Counted from the first letter of the stretch, positions 20,090 through 39,750 are shown. The stretch: DNA of 64,000 nt from a virus (IMGVR_UViG_3300023171_000010:1-64000); one strand, 5' to 3'. Numbers and translations are program-made. Notes: a model not told the origin generated them from the sequence alone.

Positions 20090-20340
20090 TTATTTATTTT
20101 TAGGTTTCTTTGCTTTTTGTTGTTCTGCAAATTGATCTTGAAGTGAATCATAAACATCGAGCAGTTCTAACATTTTATAAAGCTGCCTAGTAGAATACTT
20201 GCTATCCATCTGTGCGGCTATTTCAAGCCCGCCTTTTTCGTGCATCGCTATTCTATAAATCTGCCAGGACTGAGAGAATGTCTCATCGATATTCTTCTCT
20301 AAAGGTGTAGGGGGTTTTCTATCTCCCGATCCAGATCTTA
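20090..20340 (-). CDS. -1 frame extension of tail assembly chaperone (GT-like frameshift product, putative)
   Basis: Frame -1 relative to the chaperone is open from inside its 3' end to TAA at 20092-20090 (about 90 codons); GTTTTTC run near the junction. Confidence 0.35.
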
Positions 20341-35862: not shown

Positions 35863-36146
35863 AGTGGGGCAGCCTCGTCTGCTTTCAAATGAATCAATTA
35901 TACTAAAGAATATAATTGACTATAATAACTGGTACACCCCACAGGGAATGATCCTGAGTCATCCAGATTATGAGTCCGGCTGCTTTACCTTAAGCTAGAG
36001 GTGTTTAGAATAGGTGGAACCCCGCCAGAGGTTCCGGGTGTGGACTAGGCAGTCCGATACCAAGCCGAAGCTTAGTTAGGTTTGTAGCTGGGAGTACTCG
36101 CTCCATTTAAAGCCTACCGTTTCACACTGGCTCACTACAAATTCTT

Positions 36147-36548
36147 TTAATCTCCGTCTTGATCAGGTTCTGTATACACCAGACTCAAACGAGGCTTTAA
36201 TTCTGCTTTGATTTCAGATGGAGTCTGTTCACCAGCTTCCAGAGAATCCTTAACTTCAAACTTGAGCTTATTGTAAGAGATTTCTTCAGCATTAGCAGAT
36301 TTACTCACTGTCACAATACTATTGACAAGCCACTTACTTGAGCCAAGCTGTTCAGTGTCAATCTGTTCACCATTGATACTCTTCTTGATATTCTCAAGAG
36401 CTTTATCTTTCATTTCAAGCAACTGTTCTTCTAGGATGCGAAGCTTGCTTTTAGTGATTCGTTTGCTGTTTCCGCCAGTGGTCTTACGATTCGACTTTGG
36501 ACCGTCGAATCTTGTCGCTGGGCTAGGATTTTTATTCTTGGTAGCCAT
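36147..36548 (-). CDS. basic N-terminus / acidic C-terminus hypothetical protein
   Basis: 133 aa, Lys/Arg-rich N-terminal 40 aa. Confidence 0.4.
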   Translation of the reverse strand: MATKNKNPSPATRFDGPKSNRKTTGGNSKRITKSKLRILEEQLLEMKDKALENIKKSINGEQIDTEQLGSSKWLVNSIVTVSKSANAEEISYNKLKFEVKDSLEAGEQTPSEIKAELKPRLSLVYTEPDQDGD

Positions 36549-36805
36549 AATATTTATTCCTATGAATAAGTGATTTCTTAAGCGAACTTACCGGCTATGC
36601 CCTGTAGTATTCATAATGAAGAAGAACGCTTAAGAAAGAACACTCACTAAGCGAAGGAGAGAACGCCGCAAGTGTTCGAAAGACCTATTGGAGGAGAGAG
36701 GGACAATAGGTCTTTAAGTGCTGTCTTAGGAGAGGAAATGACAGCGTGAATACCACAATCTTTTTAGACTTACTCTTAGTGATTGTGGGTGAAACTTTTA
36801 CAATG

Positions 36806-36877
36806 TATTCGCAACAGGGGTCGAACCTGTAACCAGAAATTTAGAAGATTTCTACTCTACCATTGAGCTATGCGAAT
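36806..36877 (-). tRNA. tRNA-Arg (anticodon TCT)
   Basis: Hand-folded cloverleaf: perfect 7-bp acceptor ATTCGCA/TGCGAAT, D-arm GCTC-AATGGTA-GAGT, anticodon loop CTTCTAA, T-loop TTCGACC; no encoded CCA. Confidence 0.75.
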
Positions 36878-36880
36878 ATA

Positions 36881-36954
36881 TGGTGCCCCAGTAAAGAATC
36901 AAACTTCACTCTATTGCTTACAAGGCAATTGCATCATCACAATGCTTCAAGGGC
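36881..36954 (-). tRNA. tRNA-Thr-like (anticodon TGT), non-canonical
   Basis: 74 nt with correct arm spacing, anticodon loop CTTGTAA, encoded CCA; acceptor has one T-T mismatch and the D-loop lacks GG. Confidence 0.4.
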
Positions 36955-36959
36955 TTAAT

Positions 36960-37037
36960 TGGCTGATCCTCAGCGATTCGAACGCTGCTTCATCTTGATT
37001 AACAGTCAAGTGCCCTCACCTAGATGGCTCAGGATCA
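36960..37037 (-). tRNA. tRNA-Asn (anticodon GTT)
   Basis: 7-bp acceptor TGATCCT/AGGATCA, anticodon stem CTTGA/TCAAG with loop CTGTTAA, T-arm CAGCG-TTCGAAT-CGCTG, encoded CCA. Confidence 0.6.
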
Positions 37038-37100
37038 ATAATTGGTCTCTAACCGGTGAATTGAACACCGTCCACATCGTCCCAAACGATGCATGCTACC

Positions 37101-37188
37101 GTAACACTTGTCAGAGAATATGGCAGTGGATGTGTGATTCGAACACACGGAGCTTTTACACTCTAAGGTTTAGCAAACCTTTGCAATC
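37101..37188 (-). tRNA. tRNA-Ser (anticodon GCT), type II
   Basis: 88 nt; acceptor AGTGGAT/ATCCACT, 3-bp D-stem, anticodon loop TTGCTAA, 16-nt variable arm, T-arm GTGTG-TTCGAAT-CACAC, discriminator G, encoded CCA. Confidence 0.8.
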
Positions 37189-37216
37189 GGCCTCTCTGCC
37201 AATCCACTGCACTTGT

Positions 37217-38614
37217 TTAAAACTTATAACGGTCTTTCATTACAGCATCCATCATGACAGACTCTGGGGTCATAGACCCACTCAACAAGCTCTTCATAAT
37301 AGTTGGACTAAAGCCACTAACCAATACCGTTCCCTCAGTTCCTTTCGTTACTGGAACTGTACCAGATGAGCAGTTTACATTCCAGAATACAATCTGTGGA
37401 AGTTGATATCCTGATTCTTCATAAGCTTGTTTGAATGCCTGATAGGCTGTTACTTGATTCCCATCACGAATGCAGCTATTAAACTGCATATCTGAAACAA
37501 TCAGAAGCTTTGTGGGCATTTCATCTGCTGGAACACTATACTGTTTAGCTACACCAAGAAGGGTCGTAAAAACTGCTTGAATGTTTGTACTCATTCCCCA
37601 AGGCGCTTTCTTCAAAGCTGCAACTCGTTGTTGCAATGTACCCTCAGACCGGATTAACTGAGGTTGTTCTGAGAAAGTCATAAAGACGTTCTTAAGAACA
37701 CCAATGTTTCGTTCTGACAAATACAACCCCAATGAAACAGCGACATCCATGCAAGTAGTTTCTGACTTACTTGAAGCTCCACCTGCTTTACAACTCATAG
37801 AGCCAGATACGTCCACAATTGGGAGGAAACGTTCTGTACTGTCCTCCAAATAGTTAGGAAGGGCGTTCCACTGAGCCGAAGCAACAACTCCATCTCCATA
37901 CGCCACAGACTTAACTACATCGTAAGGATAAACAACAGAAGCATTAATCTTAGCTTCACCTGTTTCAAGTTTAGCTTTATATTCTTCGTATTCTTTCTTA
38001 GCGTTGCGACCAAATGCTTTTTGATAACGGGCGGCAGCTACAGACGGAATCTTTTCAAAATCAATTTGATCCCATTGCTTTGCACACATCTGTGTTTCAA
38101 CAACACTCGTCAACTCCACCAACATCTTACGATATTCTTTAGGTGTTTTGATTTTCATGTGTTTGCGCAAAGCAGATGCTGTGTTACCTTGACGTGGAAG
38201 CCATTTAGCACAGAGGCCGTTGTTATCAGCCAAACCTGTAGAAATTAAATCAAAGGCTTGTAGTTGGAACTTAGTTCCTTCAAATATAAGCAAATCATCC
38301 CAACGTCCAATTTCAGGAATCAACGGAATAATTTGTTCCAATACTTTATCTTGATGTTCAACAAGAACACTCAATAAGTCTTTAAACTGTTGACGCTCAC
38401 CAGCACCTTCTCGTGCATCGCGAAGCCATAGAAGTGTGCGAATAGCTACGTCTTTGTTTTCAGCCAGAGCTTTCACAAAGTCTGATTTGATATCTTTACC
38501 ACGGCTTGCCCCAGAAACATAGAAGAAATCTAGGCAAGATGACAAGCTGCTATGATGGGTAATAGCGCCATTCTCAGTTAATGCTGTGTTATTAAAAGCT
38601 TCGTACAAGTTCAT
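37217..38614 (-). CDS. vWA (MIDAS DxSxS) domain protein with helical N-terminal domain; Ro60/TROVE-like or DUF2828-like candidate
   Basis: GGAG RBS then ATG at 38614 (MNLYEAF...); C-terminal IVDVSGSMS MIDAS motif; N-terminal TENGAITHHSS..LDFFYVSGASRG loosely resembles the Ro60 N-terminal motif; the track's N-terminal extension runs into a tRNA-like element. Confidence 0.5.
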   Translation of the reverse strand: MNLYEAFNNTALTENGAITHHSSLSSCLDFFYVSGASRGKDIKSDFVKALAENKDVAIRTLLWLRDAREGAGERQQFKDLLSVLVEHQDKVLEQIIPLIPEIGRWDDLLIFEGTKFQLQAFDLISTGLADNNGLCAKWLPRQGNTASALRKHMKIKTPKEYRKMLVELTSVVETQMCAKQWDQIDFEKIPSVAAARYQKAFGRNAKKEYEEYKAKLETGEAKINASVVYPYDVVKSVAYGDGVVASAQWNALPNYLEDSTERFLPIVDVSGSMSCKAGGASSKSETTCMDVAVSLGLYLSERNIGVLKNVFMTFSEQPQLIRSEGTLQQRVAALKKAPWGMSTNIQAVFTTLLGVAKQYSVPADEMPTKLLIVSDMQFNSCIRDGNQVTAYQAFKQAYEESGYQLPQIVFWNVNCSSGTVPVTKGTEGTVLVSGFSPTIMKSLLSGSMTPESVMMDAVMKDRYKF

Positions 38615-38652
38615 AATTTTCTCCTTAAGATTAATATCAGAATCACATTTAC

Positions 38653-38711
38653 GTGCTCTACCAACTGAGCTACATGAGCCTAAACCCATGACAGGACTTG
38701 AACCTGTGACC
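38653..38711 (-). ncRNA. tRNA-like element (T-arm module followed by acceptor/D-arm module, permuted order)
   Basis: - strand reads GGTCACAGGTTCAAGTCCTGT (variable + T-arm) then a CATGGG/CTCATG hairpin then GGCTCATGTAGCTCAGTTGGTAGAGCAC (acceptor 5' + D-arm); no canonical cloverleaf can be closed. Confidence 0.35.
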
Positions 38712-38792
38712 ACGACTTTATCATAGTAGGTTTTATTGCGGTAGTGATTCTTCGTTTTGCCTATTCAGAATGTACATATCTATATGCGAGAG

Positions 38793-38920
38793 TGGATTGC
38801 TGTAGACATTCTTTGGGGCTTATCAGGCTCTACTTTACTTTTCCAATAGTTTGAGATTGCTGTAGAGAGCCTTTAAATTTCTTTCTTAGGAGTAGTATAC
38901 ACTATAAATCTTGGATTGCA
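38793..38920. repeat. three GATTGC-core repeats phased at about 60 bp
   Basis: TGGATTGCTGTAGA at 38793, GATTGCTGTAGA at 38855, TGGATTGCAAGC at 38912; spacings 60 and 59 bp. Confidence 0.4.
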
Positions 38921-38940
38921 AGCTTTTAATAAAATATATT

Positions 38941-39015
38941 TGGAGCGGATAGGGAATTTCGAAATCCCGACGAACAGCTTGGAAGGCTGACACTCTGCCT
39001 CTGAGTTATACCCGC
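38941..39015 (-). tRNA. tRNA-Gly-like (anticodon TCC), non-canonical T-stem
   Basis: 75 nt; acceptor GCGGGTA/TATCCGC, D-arm ACTC-AGAGGCA-GAGT, anticodon loop CTTCCAA, canonical T-loop TTCGAAA but T-T at 53:61, encoded CCA. Confidence 0.4.
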
Positions 39016-39492: not shown

Positions 39493-39669
39493 CTAATTAT
39501 CACTATCAGATAGGATCTTTTTAAACACTGTCCCATAATATGAGATTGACTCGTGTTGGTATTCCCAGCGGAAAGCACCATCTAAGTATTCATCCAAACT
39601 TCCATCGACATCACATCTGCATTCTAAATCTTCGGCCCCACAATCTGGGCAGTAATTAACTTCTCCCAT
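39493..39669 (-). CDS. small Cys-rich protein (CPDCG...CRC zinc-ribbon-like)
   Basis: 58-aa ORF read directly from the sequence, AAAGAGG RBS about 11 nt upstream of ATG. Confidence 0.3.
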   Translation of the reverse strand: MGEVNYCPDCGAEDLECRCDVDGSLDEYLDGAFRWEYQHESISYYGTVFKKILSDSDN

Positions 39670-39750
39670 AATGTGGGAACCTCTTTGTTTTCTAGATAAA
39701 TCAATTAAATCACAAGTGTCTTAGGTTTGTCAAGCTTTTGCATAAAATAA

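What the first reader, a model, noticed from the sequence alone, without database searches (positions are those of the whole stretch)
38653..38711. tRNA-like element with T-arm and D-arm modules in permuted order inside the 5' leader of the vWA gene
The - strand reads a textbook variable-loop + T-arm (GGTCACAGGTTCAAGTCCTGT), then a 6-bp CATGGG/CTCATG hairpin, then a textbook acceptor-5' + D-arm (GGCTCATGTAGCTCAGTTGGTAGAGCAC). No anticodon arm or 3' acceptor strand follows before the RBS of the vWA gene, so no cloverleaf closes. It could be a Y-RNA-like tRNA mimic, a permuted or split tRNA, an attP-like tRNA remnant, or a decayed tRNA used as a structured leader. The ORF track's N-terminal extension of the vWA protein (MVTGSSPVMGLGS...) is translation of this RNA element rather than protein.
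Basis: seen in the sequence. Interest (0 to 1): 0.65.

Follow-up and report, generated by a model that had tools for sequence, protein, structure and literature searches.

The report
Phage Y RNA that mimics tRNA
The odd "scrambled tRNA" is the tRNA-like half of a small non-coding Y RNA encoded just upstream of a phage version of the Ro60 RNA-binding ring protein; the RNA kind is known from bacteria, but this divergent version, common in phages, appears undescribed.

Summary
On the minus strand, 38714-38652 reads T-arm, closed 7-bp acceptor-like hairpin, then D-arm. ARAGORN calls no tRNA. The only notable Rfam match is the tRNA-like domain of YrlA (39.2 bits, E about 1e-7, below the gathering score of 69).

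The element is larger than reported. An 8-bp stem (38751-38744 with 38646-38639) closes a 113-nt RNA, and a CCGCAA motif follows the 5' strand. Two shorter RNAs with the same stem-plus-motif "handle" lie in tandem upstream (38872-38825 and 38812-38767).

Handle RNAs lie on the gene's strand in 53 of 80 related metagenomic loci and 9 of 10 annotated phages. Covariation in the handle, T-arm and D-arm is strong. Close relatives keep all three RNAs through compensatory changes.

Best reading: a YrlA-type Y RNA whose handle binds the Ro-like protein and whose tRNA mimic recruits a tRNA-recognising partner. Binding and function are inferred, not shown.

It is a new variant of a known kind: a different handle motif, a divergent partner protein, and below Rfam's threshold.

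The parts
38894..38921 (-). Promoter-like site, TTGCAA-16 nt-TATACT, placed to start a transcript just before the first small RNA
   Evidence: Consensus scan only; 9 of 12 matches. No terminator-like site on this strand between here and the gene. Function is inferred.
38825..38872 (-). Short handle RNA 1: 7-bp stem AGGCTCT/AGAGCCT, then CAGCAA (38862-38857), a short variable interior, and a 3' G
   Evidence: Model R2 was built from 34 short elements of other loci and none from the window. It hits 38877-38820 at 35.5 bits, E 3.4e-6. A compensatory G-C to A-T change is seen in relative L092. The handle pattern scan also finds it.
38767..38812 (-). Short handle RNA 2: 7-bp stem AGAATGT/ACATTCT, then CAGCAA (38802-38797) and a variable interior
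   Evidence: The R2 hit is weaker (17.7 bits, E 0.092). It sits in exact tandem register with the other two RNAs, is found by the handle pattern scan, is present in relatives L094 and L091, and has a compensatory A-T to G-C change in L092.
38639..38751 (-). Full YrlA-type RNA, 113 nt from first to last pair of the terminal stem; the reported finding is its central part
   Evidence: R1 hit 38756-38634 at 93.6 bits; the window sequence is one of the 11 seeds. The family alignment shows covariation. It is conserved in relatives whose protein is 92, 79 and 72% identical.
38744..38751 (-). Handle, 5' strand AGAATCAC, pairing with 38646-38639
   Evidence: In 31 full-size family members the 7 modelled pairs are 98.6% paired and all 7 show changes on both sides.
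38736..38741 (-). Conserved unpaired motif CCGCAA (family consensus C-A/C-G-C-A-A), 2 nt after the handle's 5' strand
   Evidence: Nearly invariant in alignments A2 and A5. It sits where known YrlA RNAs carry GNCGAA(N)G, the putative Ro-binding motif.
38712..38714 (-). CGT, 5' strand of the 3-bp stem that stands in for the top of an anticodon stem; pairs with ACG at 38654-38652
   Evidence: Rfam YrlA alignment. The equivalent helix changes in a compensatory way in L092. It aligns poorly across the whole family (55% paired).
38691..38707 (-). T-arm ACAGG-TTCAAGT-CCTGT
   Evidence: In the family it is 96% paired, and 4 of 5 pairs covary.
38673..38690 (-). Closed acceptor-like hairpin CATGGGT-TTAG-GCTCATG (7 bp)
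   Evidence: Four close relatives carry four different 7-bp sequences that all pair. Most family members have a 5-8 bp hairpin here; a few have none.
38655..38672 (-). TA (U8, A9) plus D-arm GCTC-AGTTGGTA-GAGC
   Evidence: In the family it is 98% paired, and 3 of 4 pairs covary.
38639..38646 (-). Handle, 3' strand GTGATTCT, followed by the conserved G at 38638
37217..38614 (-). Partner gene: 465-aa Ro60-fold protein (DUF2828 + DUF7788/vWA with a DxSxS MIDAS motif); RBS AAGGAG at 38626-38621
36805..37208 (-). Context: five tRNA genes (Ser-GCU, Pro-UGG, Asn-GUU, Thr-UGU, Arg-UCU) starting 9 nt after the gene's stop codon, on the same strand
   Evidence: ARAGORN and Rfam. Co-transcription with the RNAs and the gene is inferred.

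Best explanation
The finding is the tRNA-like effector domain of a roughly 113-nt YrlA-type Y RNA (38751-38639, minus strand). It is the third of three tandem small RNAs encoded between a promoter-like site and a gene for a Ro60-fold protein.

Each RNA carries the same terminal 'handle': a 7-8 bp stem, then an unpaired C(A/C)GCAA on the 5' side and a G after the 3' strand. The interior varies. In this RNA the interior is a circularly permuted tRNA top half (T-arm, closed acceptor hairpin, D-arm) with every elbow-forming nucleotide in place.

Proposed mechanism:
1. The three RNAs, the Ro-like mRNA and the downstream tRNAs are made as one precursor and cut apart (inferred).
2. The ring-shaped Ro-like protein binds the shared handle (inferred from the Ro60/Y RNA precedent and from conserved same-strand adjacency).
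3. The tRNA mimic brings a tRNA-recognising factor to the protein, or occupies that factor. Candidates are an exonuclease such as PNPase, RNase P, an RNA ligase, or a host tRNA-targeting defence nuclease (inferred; the partner is unknown).

Shown here: the RNA structure, its conservation, and the protein's predicted fold. Not shown: expression, processing, binding, or biological role.
For: **RNA identity**
- The Rfam YrlA model aligns to 38714-38652 across model positions 24-84, which are its tRNA-like domain, with the same order T, acceptor stem-loop, D. That order matches the crystal-structure description of Salmonella YrlA.

**Structure**
- In 31 full-size homologues 89% of cells are paired against 63% in shuffles. 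The covariation score is 0.707 against 0.207 in shuffles and at most 0.161 with slid partners.
- Handle, T-arm and D-arm are 96-99% paired.
- Four close relatives have four different acceptor hairpins that all pair, and each handle shows compensatory changes.

**Partner**

**Association**
- All 208 R1 hits (E <= 1) and all 108 R2 hits (E <= 0.01) are on the gene's strand.
- 53 of 80 gene-centred loci have an R2 hit, and 9 of 10 annotated phages have an R1 or R2 hit. In many loci the hit ends within about 150 nt of the start codon.
- A simple handle pattern gives 167 matches on the gene strand and 9 on the other.
- Among 80 handle-centred stretches from a collection-wide scan, 25 hold the gene, and 34 of 34 elements there share its strand.
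- The T4 tRNA region, a negative control without a Ro-like gene in the stretch examined, has no intact handle.

**Precedent**
- YrlA and YrlB lie upstream of rsr in M. smegmatis and are processed from one precursor.
- phiLo Ro60 binds two Y-like RNAs encoded upstream of its gene.
Against: - There are no expression, processing or binding data for any member of this family.
- The Rfam score is below the gathering threshold. The motif thought to bind Ro60 in known YrlA RNAs (GNCGAA) is absent at family level, so binding by the Ro-like protein rests on analogy.
- The protein has no significant sequence match to TROVE or Ro60. Homology rests on a predicted structure.
- 27 of 80 gene-centred loci, and KVP40, show no element within 3 kb. 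55 of 80 handle-centred stretches show no gene in the DNA held, so the link is strong but not one-to-one at this scale.
- In Bas63, gp130 alone, expressed from a plasmid or from T7, counters the Ppl defence. At least that activity does not need the phage RNA.
- The R1 seed includes the window sequence, and alignment A4 was fitted to the model.
Confidence: 0.75

Rival explanations
1. The elements act in cis as a structured 5' leader of the Ro-like mRNA, for example as an autoregulatory binding site or a stability element, and are never released as separate RNAs.
For: In the window and in many related loci the elements end within about 20-150 nt of the start codon, with no terminator-like site in between.
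Against: In LeBron, RSP15, VpaE1/Bas63 and L050 the full-size element lies downstream of the gene or among tRNA genes. Some loci scatter up to nine copies through the tRNA region. A leader role therefore cannot be the general function. The two roles are not mutually exclusive.
Confidence: 0.12
2. The handle is a feature of phage tRNA operons unrelated to the Ro-like protein, such as a processing signal or the binding site of another factor. The gene is nearby only because it also sits in the tRNA region.
For: Only 25 of 80 handle-centred stretches contain the gene. A metallophosphoesterase family is equally frequent there, at 26 of 80. Many elements sit between tRNA genes.
Against: The stretches are only 1-15 kb long, and genomes carry several copies per single gene, so about one third is what dispersal would give. 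The commonest position is directly upstream of the Ro-like start codon. The tRNA-like payload combined with a Ro60-fold neighbour repeats the known YrlA/Rsr pairing. T4's tRNA cluster has no handles.
Confidence: 0.1
3. It is a decayed tRNA or the scar of a dimeric tRNA junction, with no function of its own.
For: T-arm + acceptor followed by acceptor + D-arm is what the junction of two adjacent tRNA genes looks like. Such junctions do give weak model hits.
Against: There is no CCA or spacer between the arms. The two acceptor strands pair with each other as one hairpin. The flanks form a covarying stem instead of the remaining tRNA halves. The architecture is kept across phages of distant hosts with compensatory changes.
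Confidence: 0.02
4. It is a circularly permuted or split tRNA gene that is processed into a working tRNA, or an attP-like tRNA fragment used for integration.
For: The module order is that of a permuted tRNA (quotes the same comparison for YrlA). A 7-bp acceptor hairpin could be opened by RNase P, as reported for M. smegmatis YrlA.
Against: This element has no anticodon arm. An att site would be a fragment matching one host's tRNA. Here the same design recurs in phages annotated for proteobacterial, Bacillus, Enterococcus and Mycobacterium hosts.
Confidence: 0.02

Closest known systems
YrlA, the bacterial Y RNA-like tRNA mimic (Rfam RF02553; Chen et al. 2014, PMC4201824; structure preprint 10.1101/312249)
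   Same: The domain order is the same: T stem-loop, closed acceptor-like stem-loop, D stem-loop, closed by pairing of the 5' and 3' segments. All elbow nucleotides are conserved. It is encoded beside, and on the strand of, a Ro60-type protein. It is accompanied by shorter Y-like RNAs, as YrlB accompanies YrlA.
   Different: It scores 39 bits against the gathering score of 69. None of 20 related loci that carry full-size elements reaches the threshold. The terminal module is a 7-8 bp stem plus unpaired C(A/C)GCAA, not the GNCGAA(N)G motif inside the basal helix. The partner protein is a DUF2828/DUF7788 protein with no significant TROVE sequence match.
Thermus phage phiLo Ro60 with Yrl1 and Yrl2 (PMC12135203), and YrlA RNAs of mycobacteriophages such as ET08
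   Different: Those RNAs carry the CGAA motif and those proteins are annotated TROVE proteins. Here the motif and the protein family differ, and three RNAs share a modular handle. The mycobacteriophage records shown among the matches to this protein (71-76 kb genomes such as LeBron) are a different kind of phage from ET08.
Bas63 gp130, a Ro60-like protein that counters the Ppl defence system (preprint 10.1101/2024.10.10.617714)
   Same: gp130 is 44% identical to the window protein and also sits next to a tRNA array. The authors guessed that some neighbouring 'tRNA genes' might be Y RNAs.
   Different: They identified no RNA. Here a full-size element is located at MZ501086 82776-82911 (56.2 bits), in a gap annotated as two small antisense ORFs and not as a tRNA. 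A short one lies at locus positions 20235-20302. gp130 works against Ppl without the phage RNA.
Circularly permuted tRNA genes of red algae and archaea
   Same: The acceptor stem is a closed loop and the ends of the transcript pair where the anticodon stem would be (comparison quoted).
   Different: Those genes contain a full anticodon arm and mature into working tRNAs. This element has no anticodon arm.

Membership tests
YrlA / Y RNA-like (Rfam RF02553; Chen et al. 2014) | tRNA-like domain in the order T-arm, closed acceptor-like stem-loop, D-arm, closed by a stem formed from 5' and 3' segments | tested here: met
   Direct reading. The Rfam alignment covers model positions 24-84. Covariation in 31 homologues. 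Acceptor hairpins compared.
YrlA / Y RNA-like (Rfam RF02553; Chen et al. 2014) | Score at or above the family's curated gathering threshold (69 bits) | tested here: not met
   39.2 bits in the window and 39.8 bits in LeBron. No YrlA hit at threshold in 20 loci that hold full-size elements.
YrlA / Y RNA-like (Rfam RF02553; Chen et al. 2014) | GNCGAA(N0-1)G motif near the 5' end, the putative Ro60/Rsr contact | tested here: not met
   The family consensus is a stem, 0-5 nt, then C(A/C)GCAA. The window has AACGAAG at 38756-38750 at the stem's start. This is kept only in its closest relatives and is TTTAGGA or similar elsewhere.
YrlA / Y RNA-like (Rfam RF02553; Chen et al. 2014) | Encoded within a few kb of a Ro60 orthologue, on the same strand | tested here: met
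   It lies 25 nt upstream of a Ro60-fold gene. All model hits in 90 loci are on the gene's strand. Caveat: the protein is Ro60-like by predicted fold only.
YrlA / Y RNA-like (Rfam RF02553; Chen et al. 2014) | Bound and stabilised by the Ro60 protein; carries tRNA-type modifications in the T and D loops | not testable with these tools
   Needs immunoprecipitation, gel shifts and modification mapping.
Ro60 / TROVE proteins (partner gene) | HEAT-repeat ring followed by a vWA domain with a MIDAS motif | tested here: met
Ro60 / TROVE proteins (partner gene) | Significant sequence match to the Pfam TROVE domain or to solved Ro60 sequences | tested here: not met
   Pfam reports only DUF2828 and DUF7788; vWA_Ro60 reaches E 0.071. 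A profile search of PDB sequences finds phiLo Ro60 at E 0.18.
Canonical tRNA gene or tRNA pseudogene | Cloverleaf with an anticodon arm and an acceptor stem formed by the 5' and 3' ends | tested here: not met
   ARAGORN finds none here. The Rfam tRNA model scores 16.2 and 13.2 bits against a threshold of 29.
Circularly permuted tRNA gene | All tRNA parts, including the anticodon arm, present in permuted order | tested here: not met
   There is no anticodon-type hairpin between the handle and the T-arm or after the D-arm. The A-rich 5' linker is not conserved as a hairpin in relatives.

The most novel reading that the evidence does not exclude
Phages encoding a DUF2828-type Ro60-like protein carry a modular set of small RNAs. 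One common protein-binding handle is fused to different pieces of tRNA.

Payloads seen:
- an elbow-plus-acceptor mimic, as in this window
- an anticodon arm alone, in 15 of 63 short elements (shuffles average 1.2); the commonest anticodons are UGU and UUU
- in L044, a whole tRNA-Lys(UUU) body whose acceptor stem is replaced by the handle

Together with the protein these would form particles that bait, block or help repair damage from host nucleases that cut tRNAs. That would make them a new kind of RNA-based anti-defence device.

Two observations are suggestive but are not evidence. Lys(UUU) and Thr(UGU) are the prime targets of the PARIS nuclease AriB (PMC12409363). The Bas63 homologue counters the Ppl system.
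Probability: 0.3. Interest if true: 0.85.

Novelty: new variant of a known kind. Interest (0 to 1): 0.62.

Why it matters
Homologues of this protein occur in 711 deposited phage genomes, including Felix O1-like phages, Listeria A511, Vibrio KVP40, and many mycobacteriophages and Enterococcus phages. It is mostly annotated as hypothetical, or as an 'RNA-binding protein' with no RNA named.

Finding its likely RNA partners gives exact sequences to delete, tag or pull down in tractable phages such as Bas63, where the protein already has an anti-defence phenotype.

It also shows that Y RNA/Ro60 particles are much more widespread in phages than annotation of TROVE-domain proteins suggested. Standard RNA annotation misses them, and some are currently annotated as small ORFs.

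If the payloads prove to be decoys or scaffolds for tRNA-directed enzymes, this would connect Y RNAs with the contest between phages and hosts over tRNA cleavage.

Tried and rejected
- **DNA-level relatives.** A megablast search of the region against deposited phages found only tRNA-Gly matches. Relatives had to be found through the protein.
- **Sequence searches of the protein.** PDB sequences (single sequence and profile) and NCBIfam gave nothing significant. Only fold comparison showed the Ro60 relationship.
- **My first strict regex and hairpin finders.** They mostly picked up junctions between adjacent tRNA genes and missed several true elements. Covariance models replaced them.
- **An 8-bp hairpin in the linker.** RNAfold predicts one between the motif and the T-arm of the window element. 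It is not kept in close relatives, so I dropped it.
- **A pseudoknot between CAGCAA and the 3' tail GUUG.** I considered and rejected this by reading the aligned tails. The tail varies (GATA in the window, GTTA, GTAA), so the pairing is not conserved.
- **Citrobacter phage Ci1.** Its R1 hit (45 bits) overlaps an annotated pseudo-tRNA and has an imperfect handle, so I do not count it as a firm member.
- **Literature.** A search on DUF2828 found nothing relevant. The 2020 review of bacterial Ro60 and the supplementary tables of Chen et al. 2014 were not available. I therefore could not check exactly which 22 phages that study covered.
- **A slip in my protein queries.** They began one codon too early (38617, ATT). 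This added one residue and does not affect any result.

Full report
**1. The observation**

On the minus strand the window reads as follows:
- GGTC, 38711-38708
- T-arm ACAGG-TTCAAGT-CCTGT, 38707-38691
- hairpin CATGGGT-TTAG-GCTCATG, 38690-38673
- TA, then D-arm GCTC-AGTTGGTA-GAGC, 38672-38655

Every nucleotide that builds the tRNA elbow is present. ARAGORN reports seven ordinary tRNAs on this strand (35930-37208 and 38941-39015) but nothing here. The Rfam tRNA model reaches only 16 bits. The description is accurate, apart from the hairpin having 7 pairs and not 6.

**2. What it matches**

Besides the tRNAs, the only Rfam family with a notable score is YrlA (RF02553): 39.2 bits, E 2.9e-6 to 1.3e-7, over model positions 24-84 of 114. 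Those positions are the tRNA-like domain of the bacterial Y RNA-like RNA. Its published anatomy is T stem-loop, closed acceptor-like stem-loop, D stem-loop, with the 5' and 3' segments pairing in place of the anticodon stem. The 'permuted order' is therefore the normal order for this class. The score is below Rfam's gathering value of 69, because the flanks of the model do not match.

**3. The real extent**

Folding and comparison with homologues show an 8-bp terminal stem. AGAATCAC (38751-38744) pairs with GTGATTCT (38646-38639). A 3-bp stem (38714-38712 with 38654-38652) lies directly under the three-way junction. Two nucleotides after the 5' strand comes CCGCAA (38741-38736), and a G follows the 3' strand.

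The same 'handle' occurs twice more immediately upstream, around short variable interiors: 38872-38825 and 38812-38767. I built model R2 from 34 short elements of other loci only. It finds the first at E 3.4e-6 and the second at E 0.092, and nothing else credible in the 64 kb.

A promoter-like site (38921-38894) precedes the trio, and no terminator-like site separates it from the gene.

The gene starts at ATG 38614, 6 nt after AAGGAG. The longer GTG-initiated ORF listed at 38713 runs through the RNA and is not supported by homologues, which are 465-469 aa among the closest ones.

**4. The neighbouring gene**

Pfam calls it DUF2828 + DUF7788, and PHROGs calls it 'RNA-binding protein'. It has no significant sequence match to TROVE or to solved Ro60 proteins.

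An AlphaFold2 model from a 33-sequence alignment (pLDDT 81.9, pTM 0.80) matches solved structures as follows:

| Search | Target | Score |
|---|---|---|
| Foldseek | phiLo Ro60 | E 6e-8 |

The MIDAS D-x-S-x-S motif is invariant. The 'vWA gene' is therefore a divergent Ro60-type protein.

Homologues occur in 711 deposited phage genomes. Some mycobacteriophage records already label it 'Ro-like RNA binding protein'.

**5. Conservation and covariation**

Model R1 was built from 11 full-size elements, one of them the window's. It was run on the window plus 80 gene-centred metagenomic viral loci and gave 208 hits at E <= 1, all on the gene's strand. R2 gave 108 hits at E <= 0.01 in 90 loci, again all on that strand. 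Hits fall in 53 of the 80 metagenomic loci. With R1 or R2, 9 of 10 annotated phages have a hit.

Full-size elements are present in:
- Enterococcus phage EfV12-phi1
- mycobacteriophage LeBron
- Ralstonia phage RSP15
- Escherichia phages VpaE1 and Bas63
- Bacillus phage Tsamsa

Covariation in 31 full-size elements:

| Helix | Cells paired | Pairs with change on both sides |
|---|---|---|
| Handle | 98.6% | 7 of 7 |
| T-arm | 96% | 4 of 5 |
| D-arm | 98% | 3 of 4 |

The covariation score is 0.707, against 0.207 for shuffles and at most 0.161 for slid partners. This alignment was fitted to the model, which favours it. However, an independent MAFFT alignment of 34 short elements also shows the handle 100% paired, with 5 of 7 pairs covarying.

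Three close relatives (protein 92, 79 and 72% identical) conserve this region. Two show all three RNAs by model hit, and the third aligns over all three. Across the window and these relatives there are four different acceptor hairpins that all pair, and compensatory changes in the handles of RNAs 1 and 2.

**6. How tight is the link to the gene?**

A pattern for the commonest handle variant was scanned over the whole viral collection. It returned at least 120 stretches, far above my rough back-of-envelope expectation of a few chance matches. Of the 80 fetched, 25 contain a DUF2828-family gene, and all 34 elements there are on its strand. The others are short stretches of larger contigs, so the gene may lie outside them.

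Genomes carry several handle RNAs spread through tRNA regions, up to nine in one 7-kb locus. A fraction near one third is therefore compatible with a genome-level link, but it does not prove one.

T4's tRNA region, which has no Ro-like gene in the stretch examined, gives only weak hits at tRNA junctions with broken handles. Other gene families that recur near handles are a metallophosphoesterase, a dual-specificity-phosphatase-like protein and a P-loop kinase. Listeria phage A511 has an RtcB-type ligase 1.3 kb downstream. This is a setting that suggests RNA repair.

**7. Comparison with what is known**

Chen et al. 2014 found YrlA RNAs beside proteins annotated as TROVE in 254 bacteria and 22 phages. 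They defined a GNCGAA(N)G motif as the likely Ro contact. The phiLo study used the CGAA motif to find Yrl1 and Yrl2.

The RNAs described here share the tRNA-like domain and the genomic logic. They differ in three ways:
- The handle motif is C(A/C)GCAA after the stem.
- The partner protein family is different.
- None reaches Rfam's threshold.

The only hint I found in the literature is a sentence in the PhageMaP preprint. It says Bas63 gp130 looks like Ro60 and that some nearby tRNA genes might be Y RNAs. gp130 is 44% identical to the window protein. The actual candidate RNA lies at MZ501086 82776-82911, where two small antisense ORFs are annotated.

I could not read the supplementary phage list of Chen et al., so some overlap with earlier work cannot be excluded.

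**8. Mechanism and rivals**

Most likely this is a Y RNA in the usual sense. The shared handle would dock on the Ro-like ring, and the tRNA mimic would engage a factor that recognises the tRNA elbow and acceptor. Expression, processing, binding and the partner's identity are all inferred.

- A purely cis-acting leader role is unlikely to be general, because in several phages the element lies downstream of the gene or among tRNAs.
- A handle unrelated to the protein cannot be excluded without a genome-wide census.
- Decay scar, permuted tRNA gene and att remnant are contradicted by the missing anticodon arm and by covariation across distant phages.

**9. Beyond the window**

The handle carries different payloads in other loci:
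- 15 of 63 short elements contain an anticodon-arm-like hairpin (shuffles 1.2 on average, maximum 6). The commonest loops are CUUGUAA and CUUUUAA.
- L044 2544-2640 is a tRNA-Lys(UUU) body in normal order, with the handle in place of its acceptor stem.
- A few elements have T- and D-arms but no acceptor hairpin.

PARIS AriB cleaves tRNA-Lys(UUU) and tRNA-Thr(UGU). That coincidence is a lead toward a decoy or repair role, not evidence for one.

**10. Verdict**

- The feature is a real, conserved RNA of a known kind in a new variant, with a testable and possibly important family-level story.

Noticed in passing
L006 1018-1090, L013 451-522, L011 1077-1150, L024 2916-2986, L038 2817-2890, L043 1309-1373, L051 445-509, L055 461-530 and others: Many short handle RNAs carry an internal 4-5 bp stem with a 7-nt loop C-U-NNN-A-A that looks like an anticodon arm. 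The commonest are CUUGUAA (UGU) and CUUUUAA (UUU), with one CUUCUAA (UCU). This applies to 15 of 63 elements, against 1.2 on average in shuffles. The two short RNAs in the window do not show it.
   Followed up: partly
L044 2544-2640 (same element at L052 1431-1537): Handle + D-arm + anticodon arm (anticodon UUU) + variable loop + T-arm + handle. This is a tRNA-Lys-like body in normal order, with the Ro-type handle in place of its acceptor stem, so it could not be aminoacylated. The Rfam tRNA model matches positions 7-64 at 55.5 bits.
   Followed up: partly
window 36805-37208 (minus strand): The tRNA genes that begin 9 nt after the Ro-like gene's stop codon include Thr(UGU) and Asn(GUU). These are two of the three tRNAs reported as targets of the PARIS nuclease AriB and as phage-encoded bypass tRNAs. 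There is no tRNA-Lys(UUU) in the window.
   Followed up: no
L095 20749-21023 (MZ501086 82748-83022); L095 20235-20302: In Bas63 the full-size Y-like RNA (R1, 56.2 bits) lies where two small antisense hypothetical ORFs (bas63_0137 and bas63_0138) are annotated. These are probably not genes. A short handle RNA lies between tRNA-Met and tRNA-Asn.
   Followed up: partly
L042 849-1277; L083 1459-2010 (Listeria phage A511): Large structured RNAs sit in the same neighbourhoods. There is a GOLLD RNA (196.6 bits, above threshold) about 700 nt upstream of the Y-like RNA in L042. There is a ROOL-like match (87.5 bits, just below its 99.1 threshold) about 1 kb upstream of the Ro-like gene in A511.
   Followed up: no
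L083 5803-7014 (A511); L096-L175: RNA-repair-type neighbours recur. An RtcB 'tRNA splicing ligase' lies 1.3 kb downstream of the Ro-like gene in A511. A metallophosphoesterase (26 of 80), a dual-specificity-phosphatase-like protein (16 of 80) and a P-loop kinase (13 of 80) recur in handle-containing stretches.
   Followed up: partly
L026 1083-1197; L010 917-1035: Some full-size elements have T-arm and D-arm but only 5-7 nt between them. They have no acceptor hairpin, so they mimic the elbow alone.
   Followed up: no
L084 (Vibrio phage KVP40, NC_005083 165286-172692): KVP40 has the Ro-like gene but no detectable handle RNA within 3 kb on either side. The RNAs may lie elsewhere in the genome, for instance in its tRNA cluster, or may be too divergent for the models.
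   Followed up: no
window 38941-39015 (minus strand): The tRNA-Gly(UCC) just upstream of the promoter-like site is 100% identical over 77-81 nt to a tRNA-Gly of Pseudomonas syringae phages KIL2, KIL4, KIL5 and PHB09. The surrounding DNA has no close relative among deposited phages.
   Followed up: no
window 39553-39712 (minus strand): There is a weak Rfam match to IS009 RNA (19.2 bits, E 0.2, far below threshold). It is probably chance.
   Followed up: no
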